This document shows, piece after piece, positions 717 to 7,272 of a stretch of DNA of 29,386 nt; position 1 is the stretch's first letter, and each line of letters begins with the position of its first letter. The position numbers were made by a program, and so were the translations under genes. The notes under the pieces are model-generated. The model was given only the letters and a program-made list of their open reading frames with translations, searched no databases and was not told the DNA's origin. The stretch comes from a virus. The DNA lies in the UHGV virus genome UHGV-0074812; one strand, 5' to 3'.

Positions 717-1607
717 TCAGTAGTTATGTACTGAAGGAGGTAATTCTTTATTCTTAAGTCTCATCCATGCGGAAAGATTCGTTGGTCCGTCTGGCTCATT
801 GATATCAACATCTCGTGAGTGATTGATTAAAACGTCTCTCGCTATATCGATAATACGGGAGAACTCATAACCGCAGTCATGACATCTGCCGGAATAGTTC
901 GATTGAATTTGTTTCAGCGCCGGATACAGTTCGCGGAATAATGCCTGTGAACGGTTGGCATAATCCCATAGCCATACAAGGCTGTTTGCTTCTTTTGCAG
1001 AAAGCTCGTTTGCTTTCTTCTCTTGTTTGCCGATGAACTCGCCTTCAAGCACTACCCTGTGGATGTACTCTACGGCCAGCGGGATTTGTTCAATTGAAAG
1101 TTCATCAATGCTGTCAATACCAAAACGCTGATGAACCATATTGTATGCATCGTCATAGCGAAGTCCTTTCTTTCCTACCAGCATGTTTACTGCATCGCGT
1201 AGCGGTGTGCGTTCAGCTACTGAAGTTTTACCGCCAATAGTCTTCCTCTCTTGTGTGGCAGTAACCATTGCGTCATATGCACGGATAACCTTCAGCGCAA
1301 ATGCTGCGCTAATCCACATGGCGTAGGAGTAAACAAGCTCCTTGCACACGTAGGTTCCACCATATCGACCTTTCTTAGAAATGACGGGATTCTTATTCTG
1401 CATATCCGCAGAATTAAAAATTTCATTAATCAATTCAATAGTTTCATTTCTACGCATGAAGAAAGCTGGCTGATGTTTTTCCTCCTTTCCAGACGCTACA
1501 TGAAGGTCATTAAGCGAGTAACGCCCCTCTGAATCCATATGAATCTTGACGTCAGAAATGATGATGCTATTAGTGCAATTTACAGTTGACTTTGCTAAGC
1601 TTGACAT
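717..1607 (-). CDS. ant: Antirepressor Ant (KilA-N domain plus ANT/KilAC domain), ~296 aa
   Basis: ORF track 717..1673; likely true start ATG at 1607 (MSSLAKS..., GAGG 10 nt upstream). N-terminal [36 protein letters not shown] resembles KilA-N; position downstream of arc and upstream of tailspike matches P22 immI. Confidence 0.75.
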
Positions 1608-1619
1608 ATCAATAATACC

Positions 1620-1690
1620 TCGTAAGTTTTGTTGATACCGAAGCCCTGACTGTTCCCGCAGTTGGGGCTTCACTGTTTTTGTAAGTCACT
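1620..1690 (+). ncRNA. Candidate sar-like antisense RNA opposite the ant translation-initiation region (hypothetical)
   Basis: Plus-strand intrinsic terminator (stem gaagccc / gggcttc, 1637-1668, then ctgttttt) lies antisense to the arc-orf73-ant transcript just upstream of the ant RBS; P22 is known to make a ~68-nt sar RNA in the equivalent place. Promoter not confidently identified (weak TTGACA/TTGACT candidates at 1586-1606). Confidence 0.3.
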
Positions 1691-1891
1691 GTAGCTATAA
1701 AGCCACTGACCACTCATTTTTGATTTGATTGACTCTACTGAGTCACGGCAAGGAATGATTCCGCCTGACATCATTCTGATCTCCGTAAATTCACCACTCC
1801 TTATCGATTCAATGCCATCAATGTTAACTAAAGATTTACCTCTACCAAGTGCATTCTCATAGCCAATCTCATCAACCTCAATAAACCTCAT
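1670..1891 (-). CDS. Hypothetical 73-aa protein inserted between arc and ant
   Basis: [47 protein letters not shown]...; ATG overlaps the arc stop (ATGA at 1888-1891), GAGGGG 9 nt upstream; no family recognised. Confidence 0.5.
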
Positions 1892-2046: not shown

Positions 2047-2139
2047 ATTCAACTCCATTTCACTCATTGATAGTACCGTACTACTATTGAAAGCGTACTA
2101 CTACCGTTCTAGCATGTCAACAAATAAAAGGAGAACGAC
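2047..2139. promoter_or_regulatory. Divergent immI control region (Pant/Pmnt with Arc and Mnt operator-like palindromes)
   Basis: Intergenic region between divergent arc (-) and mnt (+); contains palindrome TAGTA-ccg-TACTA and repeated GTACTACTA motifs at about 2070-2106. Confidence 0.5.
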
Positions 2140-2382
2140 GTGGCTAGAAATGATCCACAATTCAACGTAAGAATGCCTGATGAGATAAAACAGCAACTTA
2201 CGCATATTGCTGCAACAAATCGCCGCTCGATAAACGCAGAGATTATTTCAGCTATCGAACTATGGATAAAAATTCATAAAGGGCAGCTAATACCTTCAAG
2301 TAGTCGAATCCTGACAAAGTCTGAGCAAGAGGCGTTTGATGTAGCTATTGATGTGTTAAAACGTGTAAGAGATGGAGGATAA
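2140..2382 (+). CDS. mnt: Mnt-like repressor (Arc/MetJ ribbon-helix-helix family), GTG start
   Basis: MARNDPQFNVRMPDEIKQQL... parallels P22 Mnt N-terminus (MARDDPHFNFRMP...); AAAGGAG RBS upstream of GTG at 2140; divergent from arc as in P22. Confidence 0.8.
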   Translation: MARNDPQFNVRMPDEIKQQLTHIAATNRRSINAEIISAIELWIKIHKGQLIPSSSRILTKSEQEAFDVAIDVLKRVRDGG

Positions 2383-2384
2383 CC

Positions 2385-2618
2385 ATGGAGCAACAACAAG
2401 GGTCGCCATTATCATTGATTATTATGGTGATTTTTTTCGTTTTTATCTTTTTTATACCTGCGTTAAAAATATCCAAAAAGGCCGGTTTTGACTGGAAGAT
2501 GGCTGTATGTTTAACAATCCCTGGCTTTAACGTGGTGGCGTGGCTCGCGCTTGCGTTCATGGATTGGCCAATTCACAAGTATCTACCAAAAGATGTGAAT
2601 CGTAAGGATGCAAAATGA
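2385..2618 (+). CDS. Hypothetical small membrane protein (77 aa, two predicted transmembrane helices)
   Basis: Strong GGAGG RBS 8 nt upstream of ATG; hydrophobic stretches LSLIIMVIFFVFIFFIPAL and VCLTIPGFNVVAWLALAF; immediately downstream of mnt on same strand. Confidence 0.6.
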   Translation: MEQQQGSPLSLIIMVIFFVFIFFIPALKISKKAGFDWKMAVCLTIPGFNVVAWLALAFMDWPIHKYLPKDVNRKDAK

Positions 2619-2824
2619 ATAAAAAACAGCTTATTAAGTCAAAAACGTCAAGCAAGGAAGAATTAGAGAAGGAGCTAAACTCCCTGAAATATGCTCTGTG
2701 TCTGGTTTACTCAAGACTGCCAATGGAAGATAAAAACGCCATTTACAATGAAATGATTAGCAGCCTTGATTTTAACGATAGAGACCTAGCATCCCACCTC
2801 AACAGCTTCCGCGTCCCTGAGTAA
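2615..2824 (+). CDS. Hypothetical 69-aa protein, translationally coupled to upstream membrane protein
   Basis: ATGA start/stop overlap at 2615-2618, AAGGA RBS; no recognisable family. Confidence 0.5.
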   Translation: MNKKQLIKSKTSSKEELEKELNSLKYALCLVYSRLPMEDKNAIYNEMISSLDFNDRDLASHLNSFRVPE

Positions 2825-2984
2825 TTCTGTTGCGGATTTGCTTCTTGCGGTGGTTTAAGCTGGAGAGCTTGGCTTCTGCTTCTGATATTTGCGCATCTAG
2901 ATCTTTAAGCTCAAGATCTGAAAGTCGCTGGTCAAGCAGGGTTTGATTCAACTCAATGTTGTTCAGACGTTCTTCTATGGTCAT
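2799..2984 (-). CDS. Hypothetical 61-aa coiled-coil protein
   Basis: Strong AAGGAG RBS 7 nt upstream of ATG at 2984; heptad-like sequence (LSDLELKDLDAQISEAEAKLSSL); converges on and overlaps the 3' end of the plus-strand ORF by 26 nt, so one of the two may be spurious. Confidence 0.4.
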   Translation of the reverse strand: MTIEERLNNIELNQTLLDQRLSDLELKDLDAQISEAEAKLSSLNHRKKQIRNRITQGRGSC

Positions 2985-2996
2985 GATTACTCCTTA

Positions 2997-3022
2997 TAAA
3001 AAACCCACCTGACGGTGGGTTT
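2997..3022 (-). terminator. Intrinsic terminator hairpin (cccacc-tgac-ggtggg) flanked by A-run and T-run; strongest in the minus direction
   Basis: Perfect stem 3004-3009/3014-3019; on the minus strand the hairpin is followed by UUUUUUUAUAAGGAG, i.e. terminator directly abutting the RBS of the 61-aa ORF. Confidence 0.6.
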
Positions 3023-3319
3023 CATAGTTAGTTTGGGACCGGACTTCTCCATTGAAAAATAAGAGGTTTTTTGAATTTTTCTAGCAAAAATGGATCAACA
3101 AAATCAGCCATATAATTCGTATTTAGAAAACGATCTACATTCCTCACATGCTCACCGATTCCTGCACATCAACGCCAAGTTTTGATGCAGGCGTTGCCAT
3201 TCTGGAAAGTCTCTACAAAACACAATTGTACCGCTCTCAAAGAGCGGAACTAGCATCTTTGGTACTTTTCCAATGTTAACTTTTTTCATGGTATCCTGCG
3301 TAAAACTAAGGAGGTTGGT

Positions 3320-3742
3320 GTGTTTGGTATATTAACGAGAAGCAAGATAAAAAAATTAAGGGCAGAACTCGCCGAAACACAAAAACTGGCTTCACATTTT
3401 TACAAAATGAAATACGACGCTGAAGAGCGTGCATTCGTTGAGTTATGCGATTTATCTATTCGTATGGGAGTAGAGCCAGATGTAGCGGCAAAAACTCAAC
3501 AAGGCATTGATATACTTGCAGATGTTGTTTTAAACAGGCAATATGCGTTTTATCTAAACGAGAAGGCCATTCAGATTTACTCGCAAATCTTCCTCCTGGA
3601 AAAAAGAAGAGGAACTCACGATCGAGAAGAGTGGTTAAATGAAGTTGTTAAAAAATCTGGCTGGGAAGTTGTTTCATCAGAACTACCTCTTATTTGTGCT
3701 GATTTAATCGAAGAGGCAAAAGAGCGCCTATCCGATGGCTAG
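3320..3742 (+). CDS. Hypothetical 140-aa soluble protein in accessory island (GTG start)
   Basis: GGAGG RBS 5 nt upstream of GTG at 3320; preceded by ~300 bp AT-rich non-coding DNA; opposite orientation to flanking late genes; no recognisable family. Confidence 0.65.
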   Translation: MFGILTRSKIKKLRAELAETQKLASHFYKMKYDAEERAFVELCDLSIRMGVEPDVAAKTQQGIDILADVVLNRQYAFYLNEKAIQIYSQIFLLEKRRGTHDREEWLNEVVKKSGWEVVSSELPLICADLIEEAKERLSDG

Positions 3743-3766
3743 ACGAATCCATCCGTGGATTACTAA

Positions 3767-5923
3767 TTACTCCTGTGCCATTCCGCTTAGCGATGCCACA
3801 ATTCCAGCTCTTGCTAAACGCTGGAACTCTTCGTTTCCTAGTGCCTCGCGTATTGCTTTTACGGCGGCCTTATTTGCCATAAATCTGCGTTCCGCCGCCG
3901 CTAATGCACCATCACTTGCCCCAACCTTAACTGCCTTTGTTGCCTCTTGAACAGCCTTTTCAATAGCGTAACGACCACTGCGGGATGCAGCTAACTTTTC
4001 TATCGTCCCTTTAGCTATAGATCCAGAAACAGCCCCTACAACACCGCCAACAATCCCTCCACCAGTAGTACCAACAATAGCCCCTGATGTTGAATTGCCT
4101 ATTGCATTGAGAACTGTCATGACAGCTTTTGGCAGTCCTTGCTCAAGAGAGTTAATTGCCGGTATAGAGCGCCCCGTATGCTCTACATATCGCAGTGGTC
4201 TGGTTGCTGCTCTGGCAAGGTCGCTGTATGCCCTAGCAATCCTACCCATTTCTGGCGAGTGCCTACTAATGGCAGTAATGTTCTGCGGCGTAAGGATCGA
4301 CGCTATATGGAATACGCCAGCAGACTCTGATTTACCGCCACGCACCCCTTGCGATACCGCATCTTGTAATATTGATGCAATTGCAGGAGATCGCTCAGAC
4401 TCTGGCAGCGCGCCAATAATCTGATGAAACTTTCCTGTCCCACTTTTTGATGAATTTTGCAAGGCTTTAATACCATCAGTGACTAACTGATCAGTTGCAA
4501 GGTTTCTAAACGCTGCTTCAGCCTGTTCTTGTGCTGTAAATCTTGCTTTTGACAGATCATTAGCTTTTTGCCAGTCATCAAGAAAACCGCCATTTTGAGC
4601 CATTATGCGCATATCTTCCGTTGCTGCATCACGAAGCTCCGCCATGCGCCTTGCCGTATTTGCCTCACCAGACCTTATATACTTCTGCTCAGCGTCAGAA
4701 AGTTTGCTTCGCCATGCCTTCATGGCATCAAACGTGATTCCTTTTTTACCAGTTTTAGCATAAGCAGATGCAAATTGTTTCATCTCAGGAGTTAGCGGCA
4801 TACCAGCCAAAATATCACCCTGAATTGTAGCGTTCAGGTTTGACATTCTGGCCTTTGCGTCAGGCATCGTGGAGCGGACGCTATCCCATGCTTCCTTTTC
4901 TGAGTTCTTCATTTTATCAATACTTGCTAAAACCCTTTGTTTTATGGCTGCACTTTTTTCTGATGCAGATCCAGCCTCAGCACCAAGTTCATCAAGTGCT
5001 GAGTGGAATTTCGACTGTATTTCACTAAACGCCCTAGTATGTGCATCCTGAACAATTCCTGGTTCGGATGCCAATATCCCTTCGGCTTGTGCAATTCCAC
5101 GACTTCCAGATCGCATTCCTGGTGTTAATGCGTTTATATCAATTCCAGCAGACTCAGCAGCTTTTGCTACATCTTCGGACACATTAGCGGCCTGACTGGC
5201 AATTGACTGACGCCCAGCACCTGACTTTGCCATCCTGGAAACATCATTAGCAGAATTCAGTGCTGCACCACCAAGAGCCTGTGAAACTCTTGGCGCAATA
5301 ACGCGCCCGACACCTGAAAGAACGCCTTGAGCACCAATATTGATACCACCGTTAATGGCAGCATTTTGTGCAAAGTCGCCCTCCTGATTTGCAGCATCAG
5401 CAAGAGAACCGGCAATCATGTTTCCTGCGGAACCGATGTCTCCTGCGAGCTTTGCTGGCGTTCCAGCAGCTTTTGCTGCTGTGCCAATTGGCAGGAGATA
5501 CCCACCAATTGTTTCACCGGCTTGCGCGTAAGGGTCTGTCGGTCGATCGACTGGACGATAGACATCATCCAAAACCTTGGGGCCACCAAGCCCCTGGCTG
5601 ATTGCATTAATCAGACTTGCGCCACCCTGCAATACGTCAAATGGTATGTTTACCAGACCACGACCAGCCTGTTCAGCAATTTGCCCTGCACTTTGACCAC
5701 CTGTGAGCCAATCACCAGCTTGTTGCATCAATGATGGTTCTTCTTTCTGCTGCTGAGGCGGAGGGTATGCTGCATAAAACTGATCTCTTGCTTCAGCCCA
5801 TTTGTCACCAGCCTTAGGGGCAACAACCTCATCAAAATATTGCGCTTGAGCCTGTGCTTTCTGTTCTTCAGTTAACGCCTGATACTGTGGAGAAGCGATA
5901 ACATCTTTCCATGCTTTAGCCAT
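3767..5923 (-). CDS. Ejection/internal virion protein, gp16-like (718 aa)
   Basis: Position last in the gp7-gp20-gp16 ejection-protein block; Ala/Gly/Gln-rich low-complexity sequence typical of these proteins. Confidence 0.7.
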
Positions 5924-7272
5924 TAATCACCCCATAAAGACGAGAAACCGGACTTATTGCTGTCGCTTCCTGATTTTCGCTCACTAACATATGTGTCATA
6001 ACCTGATGAACTATATCCCATTGATTCAGCCTCCCTTGCTGCAACCTTTTGAAATACAGAATATTGCGATCGGATTTCAGATAACTGTTTTCTGACGACC
6101 TCTTCAGGCTGTGTTATATCGAGTTTCGCGATCAGGTTTTCCAGTTTTTGGCCTTCAGCATTGGAGAGGCTACCCATACCTCGCATAGTCTGCACGTTCT
6201 GGACAAACGCACCCGACTTTAATTCTTCTATCGCATTACGGTTTGCAAGCCCTTCAGCACTTGTGAAGCCATCTATATTTCTTCCTTCGAAGCGACCGAT
6301 ACCTTCAAGCTCCTTCTTACCAAGCAAAGAATCAATTTTCTCTATCCCTCGCTCACCAGTAATCAACGCATTGTTGTAATTATTGTTGCCATCAAGCCAT
6401 CTCTTAGCCTGAGACATTCTGGCTGACGTTGCAGCTTTACCGGTTAGCGGATCAATTCCCGTCGCTGCTATCTGTGAGTTAAGAGACAAAACATCCATAT
6501 CCTGAAGTTGTCCTGCTCTTTCAAGGGCCGCCTGTGACTGCTTAAACACATACTTGTCGTGATTCAGTCTTGCCATTTGAGCCTTATAGGAAAGATCCTG
6601 CCCCCTAATAGCCCTCGCATTCGTCATGTCATTATTGCGAATGGTTTCGTTAATTCTTTGCTGCTCCTGCTGGCGACCAACCATCTTATCCTGAACAGCA
6701 AACGCCTTTTCTGGTCCAAGCGCACCGAGAGACATAGTAGTCAGCATGTGTGATAGCTGCTCTGGATTCTGAATACCTGTCTGAATCATCCAGTCAGCAT
6801 TCGCGCCAACGCGATTTAACCTATCCTTGTTGTCAGTAATGAATTTACTGTAGGCTTCCGGCCCCTGAGAAAGAGCGACGTTAGCCCTCATGGCTAAATC
6901 GCCCATATCGTTGCGTTGCTGCTCATTAAGACCGGAAAATGCCTGTTGTGCCTGTGCAACAAACGCTGGATTTTCCTGGGCAAACTTAAATAGTCCCGAT
7001 GGATCACCAGAAGCCCATGCATCAGCGTGAACCTTATTGAACGCATTAATCGCTTTCTGTTGCTGTTCCTGCTTATAAATATCAGCAACTCCAGCCAGAC
7101 CACGTAACGCGGTCAGACCAACGTTATTTGCACCTGAGCGAGCCAACTCATTGTTTTCGCGGATCAGACCAAGCGTTGCGTTAATGTCGCTTGCTTTTGG
7201 CGCATTCTCATTTTGCGCACCAATGCCAGCCAGAAAACCACCAGAATTAATACCCTGTTGCCACGTAGCCAT
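5923..7272 (-). CDS. Ejection/internal virion protein, gp20-like (449 aa)
   Basis: Synteny between gp7 and gp16; size close to P22 gp20. Confidence 0.7.

What the first reader, a model, noticed from the sequence alone, without database searches (positions are those of the whole stretch)
2385..3742. Accessory island of four small unknown genes at the sieA/hkc position between gp16 and mnt
In P22 this interval carries superinfection-exclusion cargo. Here it holds a different set: a 77-aa two-helix membrane protein coupled to a 69-aa protein downstream of mnt, a convergent 61-aa coiled-coil ORF, and a 140-aa protein with its own AT-rich upstream region and GGAGG/GTG start. None resembles a family I can name. 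The region looks more AT-rich than the flanking structural genes and is transcribed against the late operon, the usual signature of lysogen-expressed morons such as exclusion or anti-phage genes.
Basis: partly seen in the sequence, partly recalled or inferred. Interest (0 to 1): 0.75.

Follow-up and report, generated by a model that had tools for sequence, protein, structure and literature searches.

The report
Swappable accessory genes in P22-like prophage
A short AT-rich stretch of an HK620/P22-like E. coli prophage holds four real but uncharacterised small genes in a region already known to be swap-prone; one replaces the sieA exclusion gene behind its promoter, and another has a membrane helix resembling host YajC, which P22 needs to inject its DNA, so there is a testable idea for how it might block rival phages.

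Summary
The four ORFs are at the stated coordinates and are real genes (dN/dS 0.01-0.17). The interval is the mnt-to-gene-16 half of the "ant moron", a hypervariable region of P22-like phages described in 2008. It is a mosaic of separately exchangeable cassettes. ORF77 and ORF69 are translationally coupled to the mnt repressor gene. ORF61 lies on the late-operon strand, directly behind a bidirectional terminator, so it is not a lysogenic moron. Two gene fragments (P63C-domain, hkcC) are deletion scars. ORF140 starts exactly where sieA (P22) and hkcB (HK620) start, behind a 95% conserved PsieA promoter and ribosome site. ORF140 is not SieA. It is a soluble helical-hairpin protein of a small family absent from Pfam and PHROGs, and it always sits convergent to gene 16. 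ORF77, ORF69 and ORF61 are already annotated as hypothetical proteins in phage Emek, and ORF69 and ORF61 also in Kapi1. One new lead: the N-terminal cap and first membrane helix of ORF77 resemble host YajC (hhalign 91%). YajC is essential for P22 DNA injection, so ORF77 may exclude phages as a YajC decoy. No function was tested, and prophage expression is only inferred. Verdict: ordinary in kind, new members, moderate interest.

The parts
2087..2115 (+). Pmnt-like sigma-70 promoter (TTGAAA-17-TAGCAT) in the arc-mnt divergent control region
   Evidence: Consensus scan. The position matches Pmnt in the P22 annotation. Function is inferred.
2140..2382 (+). mnt-type ribbon-helix-helix repressor, first gene of the lysogenic-direction operon
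   Evidence: Pfam Arc E=1.8e-12; 42% identical to P22 Mnt over the N-terminal 40 aa.
2385..2618 (+). ORF77: small two-helix inner-membrane protein, translationally coupled to mnt; its N-terminal cap and first helix resemble host YajC
   Evidence: phrog_32536. The family has 12 clusters, found in ant morons of E. coli, Salmonella phage Emek, Pectobacterium and Pluralibacter. dN/dS 0.01-0.03. YajC similarity.
2615..2824 (+). ORF69: soluble 69-aa protein, ATGA-coupled to ORF77; in other prophages it is coupled directly to mnt
   Evidence: phrog_16466. 46 clusters in E. coli and Salmonella. dN/dS 0.06-0.14. Contexts.
2799..2984 (-). ORF61: 61-aa coiled-coil protein with a basic tail, on the late-operon strand; SD AAGGAG at 2995-2990 begins 2 nt after the terminator U-tract
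   Evidence: phrog_7586. dN/dS 0.06-0.17 with intact 61-codon frames at 75-79% aa identity. It also occurs alone, with the match starting exactly at its stop codon.
3001..3022 (.). Bidirectional intrinsic terminator: 9-bp stem AAACCCACC/GGTGGGTTT with loop TGAC. U6 follows on the - strand and UUUCAUAGUU on the + strand
   Evidence: Fold. Annotated as a terminator in phage Emek. It plays the same role as the P22 mnt terminator and HK620 tORF59A.
3043..3162 (-). Internal 40-codon fragment of a P63C-domain gene (deletion scar)
   Evidence: tblastn: 95% to residues 83-122 of the PK8241 P63C protein.
3170..3289 (-). First 40 codons of hkcC (deletion scar); overlaps PsieA on the opposite strand
   Evidence: tblastn: 90% to HK620 hkcC residues 1-40.
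3259..3289 (+). Homologue of the P22 sieA promoter (PsieA)
   Evidence: One substitution against the 31-nt annotated P22 promoter. 84/88 identity over the 85 bp upstream plus the start codon. That fragment suffices for sieA function in P22 (PMC10883804).
3308..3314 (+). Shine-Dalgarno AAGGAGG shared with sieA and hkcB
   Evidence: Alignment A1; sequence.
3320..3742 (+). ORF140: soluble all-helical protein (long hairpin plus three short helices) occupying the sieA/hkcB slot, convergent with gene 16
   Evidence: Family. AF2 pLDDT 94.6. dN/dS 0.07. Immediately next to the gene 16 3' end in every IMG/VR locus where gene 16 is recognised, 16 of 21, and in Citrobacter.
3767..5923 (-). Gene 16 ejection (DNA transfer) protein, HK620 type; right border of the island
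   Evidence: phrog_770; 87% to HK620 gp16 and 99% to UMNK88 gp16.

Best explanation
The interval is the mnt-to-gene-16 half of the 'ant moron' of an HK620-like member of the P22 group (Lederbergvirus). It is a patchwork of cassettes that recombine independently at gene boundaries, not one four-gene system.

(1) ORF77 and ORF69 are appended to the mnt repressor gene and translated by coupling. They are made whenever Pmnt fires, and the transcript ends at the bidirectional terminator at 3001-3022.

(2) ORF61 lies on the late strand, and its ribosome site starts 2 nt after that terminator's U-tract. It can only be read when late transcription, antiterminated by gp23, runs from gene 16 towards the tailspike. 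In the lysogen it is also covered by the convergent mnt transcript.

(3) ORF140 has replaced sieA/hkcB precisely at the start codon and keeps the PsieA promoter and ribosome site. It should therefore be expressed the way sieA is.

Most likely function (inferred): ORF77 and ORF140 are prophage-expressed protection against superinfecting phages. For ORF77 I commit to a mechanism. It inserts in the inner membrane N-terminus-out, and its cap plus first helix (QGSPLSLIIMVIFFVFIFF) copies the YajC transmembrane helix (QGSPMSLILMLVVFGLIFY). YajC is the host protein P22 needs to get DNA across the inner membrane. ORF77 would then act as a decoy or competitor at the YajC-dependent step and block DNA delivery by P22-like phages. 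ORF140 would act from the cytoplasmic side by an unknown route.

Shown: the anatomy, coding status, cassette structure, promoter and start conservation, slot fidelity and the YajC resemblance. Inferred: expression in the lysogen and every functional statement.
For: Anatomy and coupling.

Coding status: dN/dS 0.01-0.17 for all four genes.

Cassette independence:
- ORF77 alone, ORF69+ORF61, and ORF61 alone (match starting at its stop codon) all occur in E. coli genomes.
- mnt-ORF69-ORF61-SieA(type B)-gp16 occurs in L014/L015.
- mnt-ORF77-gp16 occurs in L037/L038.
- mnt-orf59a-hkcC-ORF140-gp16 occurs in L052.
- UMNK88 has the same four genes plus a Panacea cassette.

The sieA slot:
- P22, HK620 and the window are identical through promoter, SD and GTG, and diverge straight after.
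- 84/88 identity to the fragment that is sufficient for sieA exclusion (PMC10883804).
- ORF140 relatives at 33-52% identity sit next to gene 16, convergent, in Citrobacter and in the metagenome locus L019.
- The same holds in all 16 IMG/VR loci with a recognisable gene 16.

ORF77-YajC resemblance:
- The top hit of the family profile in all PDB sequences is YajC 2rdd_B (E=0.2; next hit 1.3).
- BLASTP 30 bits, E=5e-7, 14/34 identical.
- hhalign 91%, E=9e-7, against 0.2% for the multi-helix SieA control.
- In a local background of 3,535 ORF segments, 447 of them membrane-like, YajC scores 18-19 bits and the best unrelated segment 8 bits.
- Shuffle p is about 1e-6.
- YajC is essential for P22 injection, with plating <1e-7 on a yajC- host (PMC10883804).
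Against: - No function was tested, and no known defence, exclusion or anti-defence family matches.
- The YajC resemblance covers only about 26-34 residues. Under a null that keeps the polar cap, hydrophobic core and basic flank in place, p is only 2e-4, so a proteome-wide chance match is not excluded.
- The Pfam YajC model gives no hit, and the YajC cytoplasmic domain is absent.
- Within the ORF77 family, the invariant part is the loop, helix 2 and tail. The core of helix 1 varies, and four members score only 21-47 against YajC.
- Lysogen expression is not shown. Kapi1 mnt is undetected in LB and simulated intestinal fluid, and Gally has no moron above background in LB.
- ORF140 sits next to gene 16 alleles that are 99% and 21% identical to this one, so there is no allele matching to suggest a direct gp16 partner.
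Confidence: 0.45

Rival explanations
1. The genes are ordinary moron cargo with no role in phage exclusion, for example tuning of the mnt/arc/ant switch or of host envelope physiology. On this reading the ORF77-YajC resemblance is chance, or reflects a shared membrane-insertion signal. It could also reflect binding to SecDF or AcrB for a host-directed purpose.
For: - No hit to any defence or exclusion family.
- ORF69 and several ORF140 relatives sit directly in mnt operons, which would fit accessory regulators.
- The block-preserving shuffle p is only 2e-4.
- The conserved core of ORF77 is helix 2 and the tail, not the YajC-like helix.
- The mnt side of Gally is induced 6-40-fold in macrophages rather than in broth.
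Against: - The only characterised cargo of this slot, SieA, is an exclusion protein.
- YajC is the top hit among 177,635 PDB sequences and stands 10 bits above 447 membrane-like background segments. It is also the one inner-membrane host factor reported as essential for P22 injection.
Confidence: 0.3
2. ORF140, and possibly ORF69, help the phage itself. They could be anti-defence proteins or helpers of lytic growth that happen to sit in the moron, like the Tad2-like gene proposed in Kapi1.
For: - Both are small, soluble, helical proteins with no enzyme motifs.
- sieA is reported to be upregulated during induction (PMC10883804), so PsieA cargo can also act during lytic growth.
- The same region elsewhere carries Panacea-domain cassettes.
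Against: - They are oriented against the late operon and behind the prophage-type promoters Pmnt and PsieA.
- There is no similarity to known anti-defence families in PHROGs or Pfam.
Confidence: 0.15
3. ORF77 (membrane toxin) and ORF69 (antitoxin) form a toxin-antitoxin or addiction pair.
For: They overlap as ATGA, and the first is a small hydrophobic protein.
Against: Each gene occurs without the other. ORF77 lacks ORF69 in Pectobacterium, Pluralibacter, ETEC1703 and L037-L042. ORF69 lacks ORF77 in AHM8C212RI, Kapi1 and L013-L015.
Confidence: 0.04
4. ORF140 is a very divergent SieA or hkcB, or the ORFs are non-coding debris of the flux in this region.
For: ORF140 has the same slot, promoter and start codon as sieA and hkcB. 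Real debris (P63C and hkcC fragments) lies next to it.
Against: - ORF140 has no membrane helix, whereas SieA has several.
- hhalign against a SieA type A+B alignment gives 0.2%, and the RYPGEA..FNK motif is absent.
- dN/dS is 0.07, and the family spans 33-47% identity with conserved length.
- AF2 pLDDT is 94.6.
Confidence: 0.02

Closest known systems
The 'ant moron' (immI accessory region) of P22-like phages, between genes 16 and 9 (Villafane et al. 2008, PMC2629481)
   Same: Same location and same mnt/arc/sar/ant core. It shows the same rapid flux of unrelated small genes and has lower GC than the late operon.
   Different: This particular cargo set (ORF77, ORF69, ORF61, ORF140) was not among the ten types described. 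The contiguous arrangement is found in 1 of 5,426 complete E. coli genomes.
P22 SieA (types A, B and C; Leavitt et al. 2024, PMC10883804)
   Same: ORF140 uses the same promoter, ribosome site, start position and orientation next to gene 16. [quoted passage not shown]
   Different: Neither is homologous to SieA (hhalign 0.2%). ORF140 is soluble. ORF77 has 2 helices and 77 aa, against 164-212 aa with 4-5 helices for SieA.
HK620 hkcB / hkcC and P22 orf59a
   Same: These are alternative occupants of the same slots. The first 40 codons of hkcC survive here as a fragment at 3170-3289.
   Different: No sequence similarity to the four ORFs. Their functions are also unknown.
Host YajC (Sec translocon accessory subunit; essential for P22 DNA injection)
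   Same: ORF77 residues 3-38 align with YajC residues 15-50. The region runs from a polar cap through a transmembrane helix to a basic cytoplasmic flank, is 41-46% identical, and has the same predicted N-out orientation.
   Different: ORF77 lacks the YajC cytoplasmic domain and instead adds a highly conserved loop, a second helix and a periplasmic tail. There is no DNA-level identity (47%), so it is not a recent capture.
Small prophage or phage proteins that block DNA entry at the inner membrane: T4 Imm, HK97 gp15, and DicB of the Qin prophage (PMC6832061)
   Same: They are small, expressed from a resident phage, and act on an inner-membrane step that incoming phage DNA needs. This is what ORF77 is proposed to work like.
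   Different: No homology (PHROG search). Mimicry of the host factor itself has, to my knowledge, not been described for these proteins.

Membership tests
Moron / 'ant moron' of P22-like phages | Lies between the gene 16 and gene 9 (tailspike) homologues | tested here: met
   gp16 is at 3767-5923. ant, arc, mnt and the tailspike N-terminus lie to the left.
Moron / 'ant moron' of P22-like phages | Gene content differs among relatives that are otherwise syntenic | tested here: met
   Searches show many alternative gene sets between the same flanks.
Moron / 'ant moron' of P22-like phages | Own promoter and terminator, and base composition unlike the flanks | tested here: met
   PsieA homologue 84/88 identical. 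Pmnt-like site. Bidirectional terminator. GC 0.399 against 0.482. This is sequence evidence only.
Moron / 'ant moron' of P22-like phages | Expressed from the repressed prophage | not testable with these tools
   The literature on relatives is mixed. P22 sieA and mnt are expressed in lysogens. Kapi1 mnt is undetected. Gally mnt is low in LB and up 40-fold in macrophages.
SieA (Pfam PF26849) | Several transmembrane helices; inner-membrane protein | tested here: not met
   The ORF140 hydropathy maximum is 0.75, with no window above 1.6. P22 SieA has 43 such windows.
SieA (Pfam PF26849) | Sequence or profile similarity, including the FxRYPxEAxxFNK motif | tested here: not met
   hhalign of the ORF140 and ORF77 families against a type A+B SieA alignment gives 0.2% each, and the motif is absent. 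The local Pfam copy lacks PF26849, so a Pfam scan was not a valid test.
SieA (Pfam PF26849) | Position next to gene 16, behind PsieA | tested here: met
   (for ORF140).
YajC (Pfam PF02699), for ORF77 | N-terminal transmembrane helix of YajC type | tested here: met
   hhalign 91%, E=9e-7. BLASTP E=5e-7. Top PDB hit. 10 bits above the local membrane-like background.
YajC (Pfam PF02699), for ORF77 | Conserved cytoplasmic C-terminal domain, and a match to the family model | tested here: not met
   The alignment ends at ORF77 residue 38 and the rest is a second helix. No PF02699 hit at E<=5 in any of 13 members. ORF77 is therefore a partial look-alike, not a family member.
XhlA haemolysin family (Pfam PF10779), for ORF61 | Score above the Pfam gathering threshold, and a C-terminal membrane anchor | tested here: not met
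   14.1 bits against a cut-off of 34.7, and no hydrophobic segment. The 'XhlA' label in some RefSeq and Kapi1 records rests on an upstream-extended ORF.
ESCRT-III / PspA / Vipp1 superfamily, for ORF140 | Profile similarity, and a hairpin plus short-helix fold match | tested here: not met
   hhalign against E. coli PspA gives 0.2%. No Snf7 or PspA Pfam hit in 11 members. Foldseek hits to CHMP3, Snf7, CdvB and Vipp1 reach only E 0.5-1.4.
Type II toxin-antitoxin pair (ORF77/ORF69) | The two genes travel together | tested here: not met
   Each occurs without the other.
Known anti-phage defence systems (PADLOC-DB 2.0) | Match to any system protein model | tested here: not met
   ORF77, ORF69 and ORF140 have no hits. 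ORF61 has only coiled-coil noise (PbeC E=7e-4, JetC E=0.0075, at 16.2 and 12.1 bits).

The most novel reading that the evidence does not exclude
ORF77 is a superinfection-exclusion protein that works by molecular mimicry of a host dependency factor. Its first membrane helix imitates the YajC helix that P22-like phages need for DNA entry. It would therefore either occupy the docking site of the gp16/gp20 conduit or displace YajC from its partners, shutting the door to related phages. ORF140 would be a second, cytoplasmic exclusion or defence protein of a new family that has taken over the sieA expression slot.
Probability: 0.25. Interest if true: 0.8.

Novelty: new member of a known kind. Interest (0 to 1): 0.5.

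Why it matters
The region itself is textbook moron biology. Two things make it useful.

First, ORF140 defines a small protein family that is faithful to one slot. It is found in 30 of 5,426 complete E. coli genomes, including ST131, and in Citrobacter and metagenomic P22-like prophages. It inherited the sieA promoter and start but is soluble and unrelated to SieA. The slot therefore accepts mechanistically different cargo, and ORF140 is a clean candidate for a new exclusion or defence activity.

Second, why P22 needs YajC, and how prophage membrane proteins stop DNA delivery, are open questions. A prophage protein carrying a YajC-like helix gives a simple genetic handle on both, through plating assays, YajC titration and a helix swap.

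Tried and rejected
- Pfam, PHROGs, NCBIfam and PADLOC scans of all four proteins found only PHROG families of unknown function for ORF77, ORF69 and ORF61, and nothing for ORF140.
- tblastn of ORF140 against 50,697 phage records found no relative.
- ESCRT-III/PspA idea for ORF140, prompted by the MFG N-terminus and hairpin: rejected by hhalign against PspA.
- SieA relationship: rejected.
- The XhlA label for ORF61: rejected.
- The ORF77/ORF69 toxin-antitoxin idea: rejected by gene distribution.
- The idea that ORF140 is matched to a particular gene 16 allele: rejected, because neighbouring gp16 proteins are 99% and 21% identical to this one.
- Recent capture of yajC DNA by the phage: rejected, with 47% nt identity and 11/34 identical third positions.
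- The Rfam scan found no RNA family in the interval itself; it found only sar further left.
- The hairpin between ORF140 and gene 16 (3746-3761) folds no better than shuffles.
- Two recent preprints that mention yajC and P22 could not be read.
Full report
WHAT THE WINDOW IS. The window is an HK620-like member of the P22 group. 70-77% of its first 25 kb aligns at about 95% to HK620 and vB_EcoP-611R6. The late operon runs on the minus strand. Going left from gene 20 (5923-7272) and gene 16 (3767-5923; phrog_770; 87% identical to HK620 gp16) one reaches the finding. Beyond it lie mnt (2140-2382), arc (1888-2067), an extra orf73, ant, and the start of the tailspike gene. Rfam finds the sar antisense RNA at 1609-1674 (61.7 bits), so the immunity I module is complete.

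The mnt stop, a GGAGG and the ORF77 ATG are contiguous, and ORF77 and ORF69 overlap as ATGA. ORF140 has AAGGAGG 5 nt before its GTG. GC is 0.399 in the interval, against 0.482 in gene 16 and 0.474 overall.

All four are real genes. I compared them with diverged copies: 75-80% aa identity for ORF61 and ORF69, 82-83% for ORF77, and 94% nt identity for ORF140. dN/dS came out at 0.06-0.17, 0.06-0.14, 0.01-0.03 and 0.07 respectively. Every alternative frame carries stops. ORF140 also has ten relatives at 33-47% identity and 138-146 aa that all begin MF (nine of them full-length matches). With that alignment AlphaFold gives pLDDT 94.6.

WHAT IT IS: A KNOWN HOTSPOT, FOUR SEPARATE CASSETTES. The stretch between genes 16 and 9 of P22-like phages was named the 'ant moron' in 2008. 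It was described as being in rapid flux, with ten types in sixteen genomes (PMC2629481). The present interval is its mnt-to-16 half.

It is mosaic at the DNA level. Positions 2100-3028 are 99.7% identical to Salmonella phage Emek, where the genes are already annotated as orf77, orf69 and orf61. Positions 3155-3326 are 94% identical to the P22 sieA promoter region.

Among 5,426 complete E. coli genomes, 476 carry some part, but only one (CH468) has the contiguous arrangement. UMNK88 has the same four genes with a Panacea-domain cassette inserted between ORF61 and ORF140.

Matches break at gene boundaries. ORF77 occurs alone. ORF69 plus ORF61 occur together. ORF61 occurs alone, with the match starting exactly at its stop codon. 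Other prophages show these orders:
- mnt-ORF69-ORF61-SieA(type B)-16
- mnt-105aa-ORF61-orf59a-hkcC-16
- mnt-ORF77-16
- mnt-ClpP-like-ORF77-16 in Pectobacterium
- mnt-orf59a-hkcC-ORF140-16 (L052)

Between the terminator and ORF140 the window keeps two scars on the late strand. One is 40 internal codons of a P63C-domain gene (3043-3162). The other is the first 40 codons of hkcC (3170-3289).

TRANSCRIPTIONAL LOGIC (inferred from sequence and from P22). A Pmnt-like promoter sits at 2087-2115. No terminator-like structure lies on the plus strand until the hairpin at 3001-3022, so mnt, ORF77 and ORF69 should form one transcript.

The same hairpin read on the minus strand is followed by six U residues. 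Two nucleotides later comes the AAGGAG of ORF61. ORF61 is therefore a late-strand gene. It can be reached only by transcripts that read through the terminator, as the gp23-antiterminated late transcript does in P22 on its way to gene 9. In the lysogen the convergent mnt transcript lies opposite it.

ORF140 SITS IN THE sieA SLOT. An alignment of P22, HK620 and the window shows near-identity through the annotated PsieA, the AAGGAGG and the GTG. The three diverge completely from the second or third codon onwards, into sieA, hkcB and ORF140 respectively.

The 85 bp upstream plus the start codon are 84/88 identical to the P22 fragment that, with sieA alone, gave full exclusion in single copy (PMC10883804).

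Slot fidelity is striking. In every IMG/VR locus where gene 16 is recognisable (16 of 21), the ORF140 relative lies 30-70 bp from the gene 16 stop, convergent. The same holds in Citrobacter and in metagenome locus L019. This is so even for relatives at 35-52% identity, and for gene 16 alleles only 21% identical to this one.

ORF140 is not SieA. It has no hydrophobic segment. It lacks the RYPGEA..FNK motif. hhalign against a type A+B SieA alignment gives 0.2%.

ORF77 AND YajC. ORF77 belongs to a 12-cluster family confined to ant morons of E. coli, Salmonella phage Emek, Pectobacterium and Pluralibacter. It always runs in the mnt direction, and sometimes it is the only cargo.

A profile of the family was searched against all PDB sequences. 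One hit came below E=1: the YajC peptide of entry 2rdd (E=0.2), with the next hit at 1.3.

Comparison with full-length E. coli YajC:
- BLASTP with compositional adjustment: 30 bits, E=5e-7, 14/34 identical (QGSPLSLIIMVIFFVFIFF against QGSPMSLILMLVVFGLIFY).
- hhalign: 91% probability, E=9e-7.

Controls:
- The same profile against the multi-helix SieA gives 0.2%.
- Among 3,535 ORF segments from all loci fetched, 447 of them membrane-like, YajC scores 18-19 bits and the best unrelated segment 8 bits.
- Composition-preserving shuffles give p of about 1e-6.
- Shuffles that keep cap, core and flank in place give p=2e-4.

YajC matters here because it is reported as essential for P22 DNA injection. 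Plating is <1e-7 on a yajC- host, and SieA-escape mutants do not bypass the requirement (PMC10883804). The SieA authors raise occlusion of YajC as one possible mode of action for SieA.

I therefore propose that ORF77 is a YajC-helix decoy that blocks DNA entry by P22-like phages. The cautions are real:
- The match is short.
- The Pfam YajC model does not hit.
- The YajC cytoplasmic domain is missing.
- The invariant part of the family is the loop, helix 2 and tail, not helix 1.
- Four family members score only 21-47 against YajC.
- There is no DNA-level identity.

ORF69 AND ORF61. Both are soluble and have no informative relatives. They have diverged together to 75-80% aa identity, but ORF61 also occurs with a different upstream partner. 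The 'XhlA family' label that some records give to an upstream-extended ORF61 is not supported (14.1 bits against a cut-off of 34.7, and no membrane anchor). I cannot assign either protein a mechanism beyond its expression logic.

EXPRESSION CAVEAT. Prophage expression is inferred from P22. In two E. coli relatives the mnt side is weakly transcribed in broth. Kapi1 carries ORF69 and ORF61 as Kapi1_062 and Kapi1_061, and its mnt is below detection in LB and simulated intestinal fluid. Gally shows no moron above background in LB, and its mnt rises 40-fold in macrophages.

VERDICT. In kind this is a known hypervariable moron, and three of the four genes are already deposited as hypothetical proteins. 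What is new is (a) the exact anatomy, including the start-codon-precise replacement of sieA by an unrelated soluble protein family that is faithful to that slot, and (b) the YajC-like helix of ORF77, which turns a vague 'maybe exclusion' into a specific, cheap experiment.

Noticed in passing
window 1609-1674 (+): sar antisense RNA (Rfam RF00262, 61.7 bits, above the gathering score). The immunity I module (mnt, arc, sar, ant) is therefore complete in this phage.
   Followed up: partly
window 1670-1891 (-) and 717-1673 (-): An extra 73-aa gene (phrog_11805, unknown function) sits between arc and ant and abuts sar. The PHROG alignment of Ant starts at residue 23 of the listed ORF, so ant probably starts at the ATG near 1607 rather than at the GTG at 1673.
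   Followed up: no
window 3043-3162 (-) and 3170-3289 (-): Two gene fragments lie back to back: 40 internal codons of a P63C-domain gene (95%) and the first 40 codons of hkcC (90%). They are deletion scars showing that this copy derives from a larger moron.
   Followed up: yes
window 2981-3025: The terminator sequence recurs at 98-100% identity in many E. coli chromosomes outside P22-like prophages, including beside the yafO toxin gene. It looks like a mobile or widely reused terminator module.
   Followed up: no
window 2431-2453: The helix-1 coding region of ORF77 contains T7, T5 and T6 runs. Three database variants (P0005, P0006, P0013) are frameshifted across exactly this stretch and return to frame before the conserved loop. 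This could be sequencing error or slippage-prone variation.
   Followed up: no
L001 3426-4299; L025 3422-4564; L009 4269-4805: The same region in relatives carries other cargo. Emek and UMNK88 have a Panacea-domain (antitoxin-like) cassette on the late strand. Several E. coli prophages have a P63C-domain gene. A Pectobacterium prophage has a ClpP-like protease gene coupled to mnt.
   Followed up: no
L004 5221-5793 (E. coli CH468): The only complete E. coli genome with the contiguous arrangement is a deleted prophage. ORF140 loses its last codons and is joined to a gp4 fragment next to the cro/c2 region, so ORF140 is left unannotated there.
   Followed up: partly
tool note (window 3767-5923): The local Pfam copy lacks PF26808 (Phage_P22_gp16) and PF26849 (SIEA). 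The window's gene 16 got no Pfam hit, although precomputed tables list these families for homologues. Absence of a Pfam SieA hit is therefore not evidence, and direct profile comparison was used instead.
   Followed up: yes
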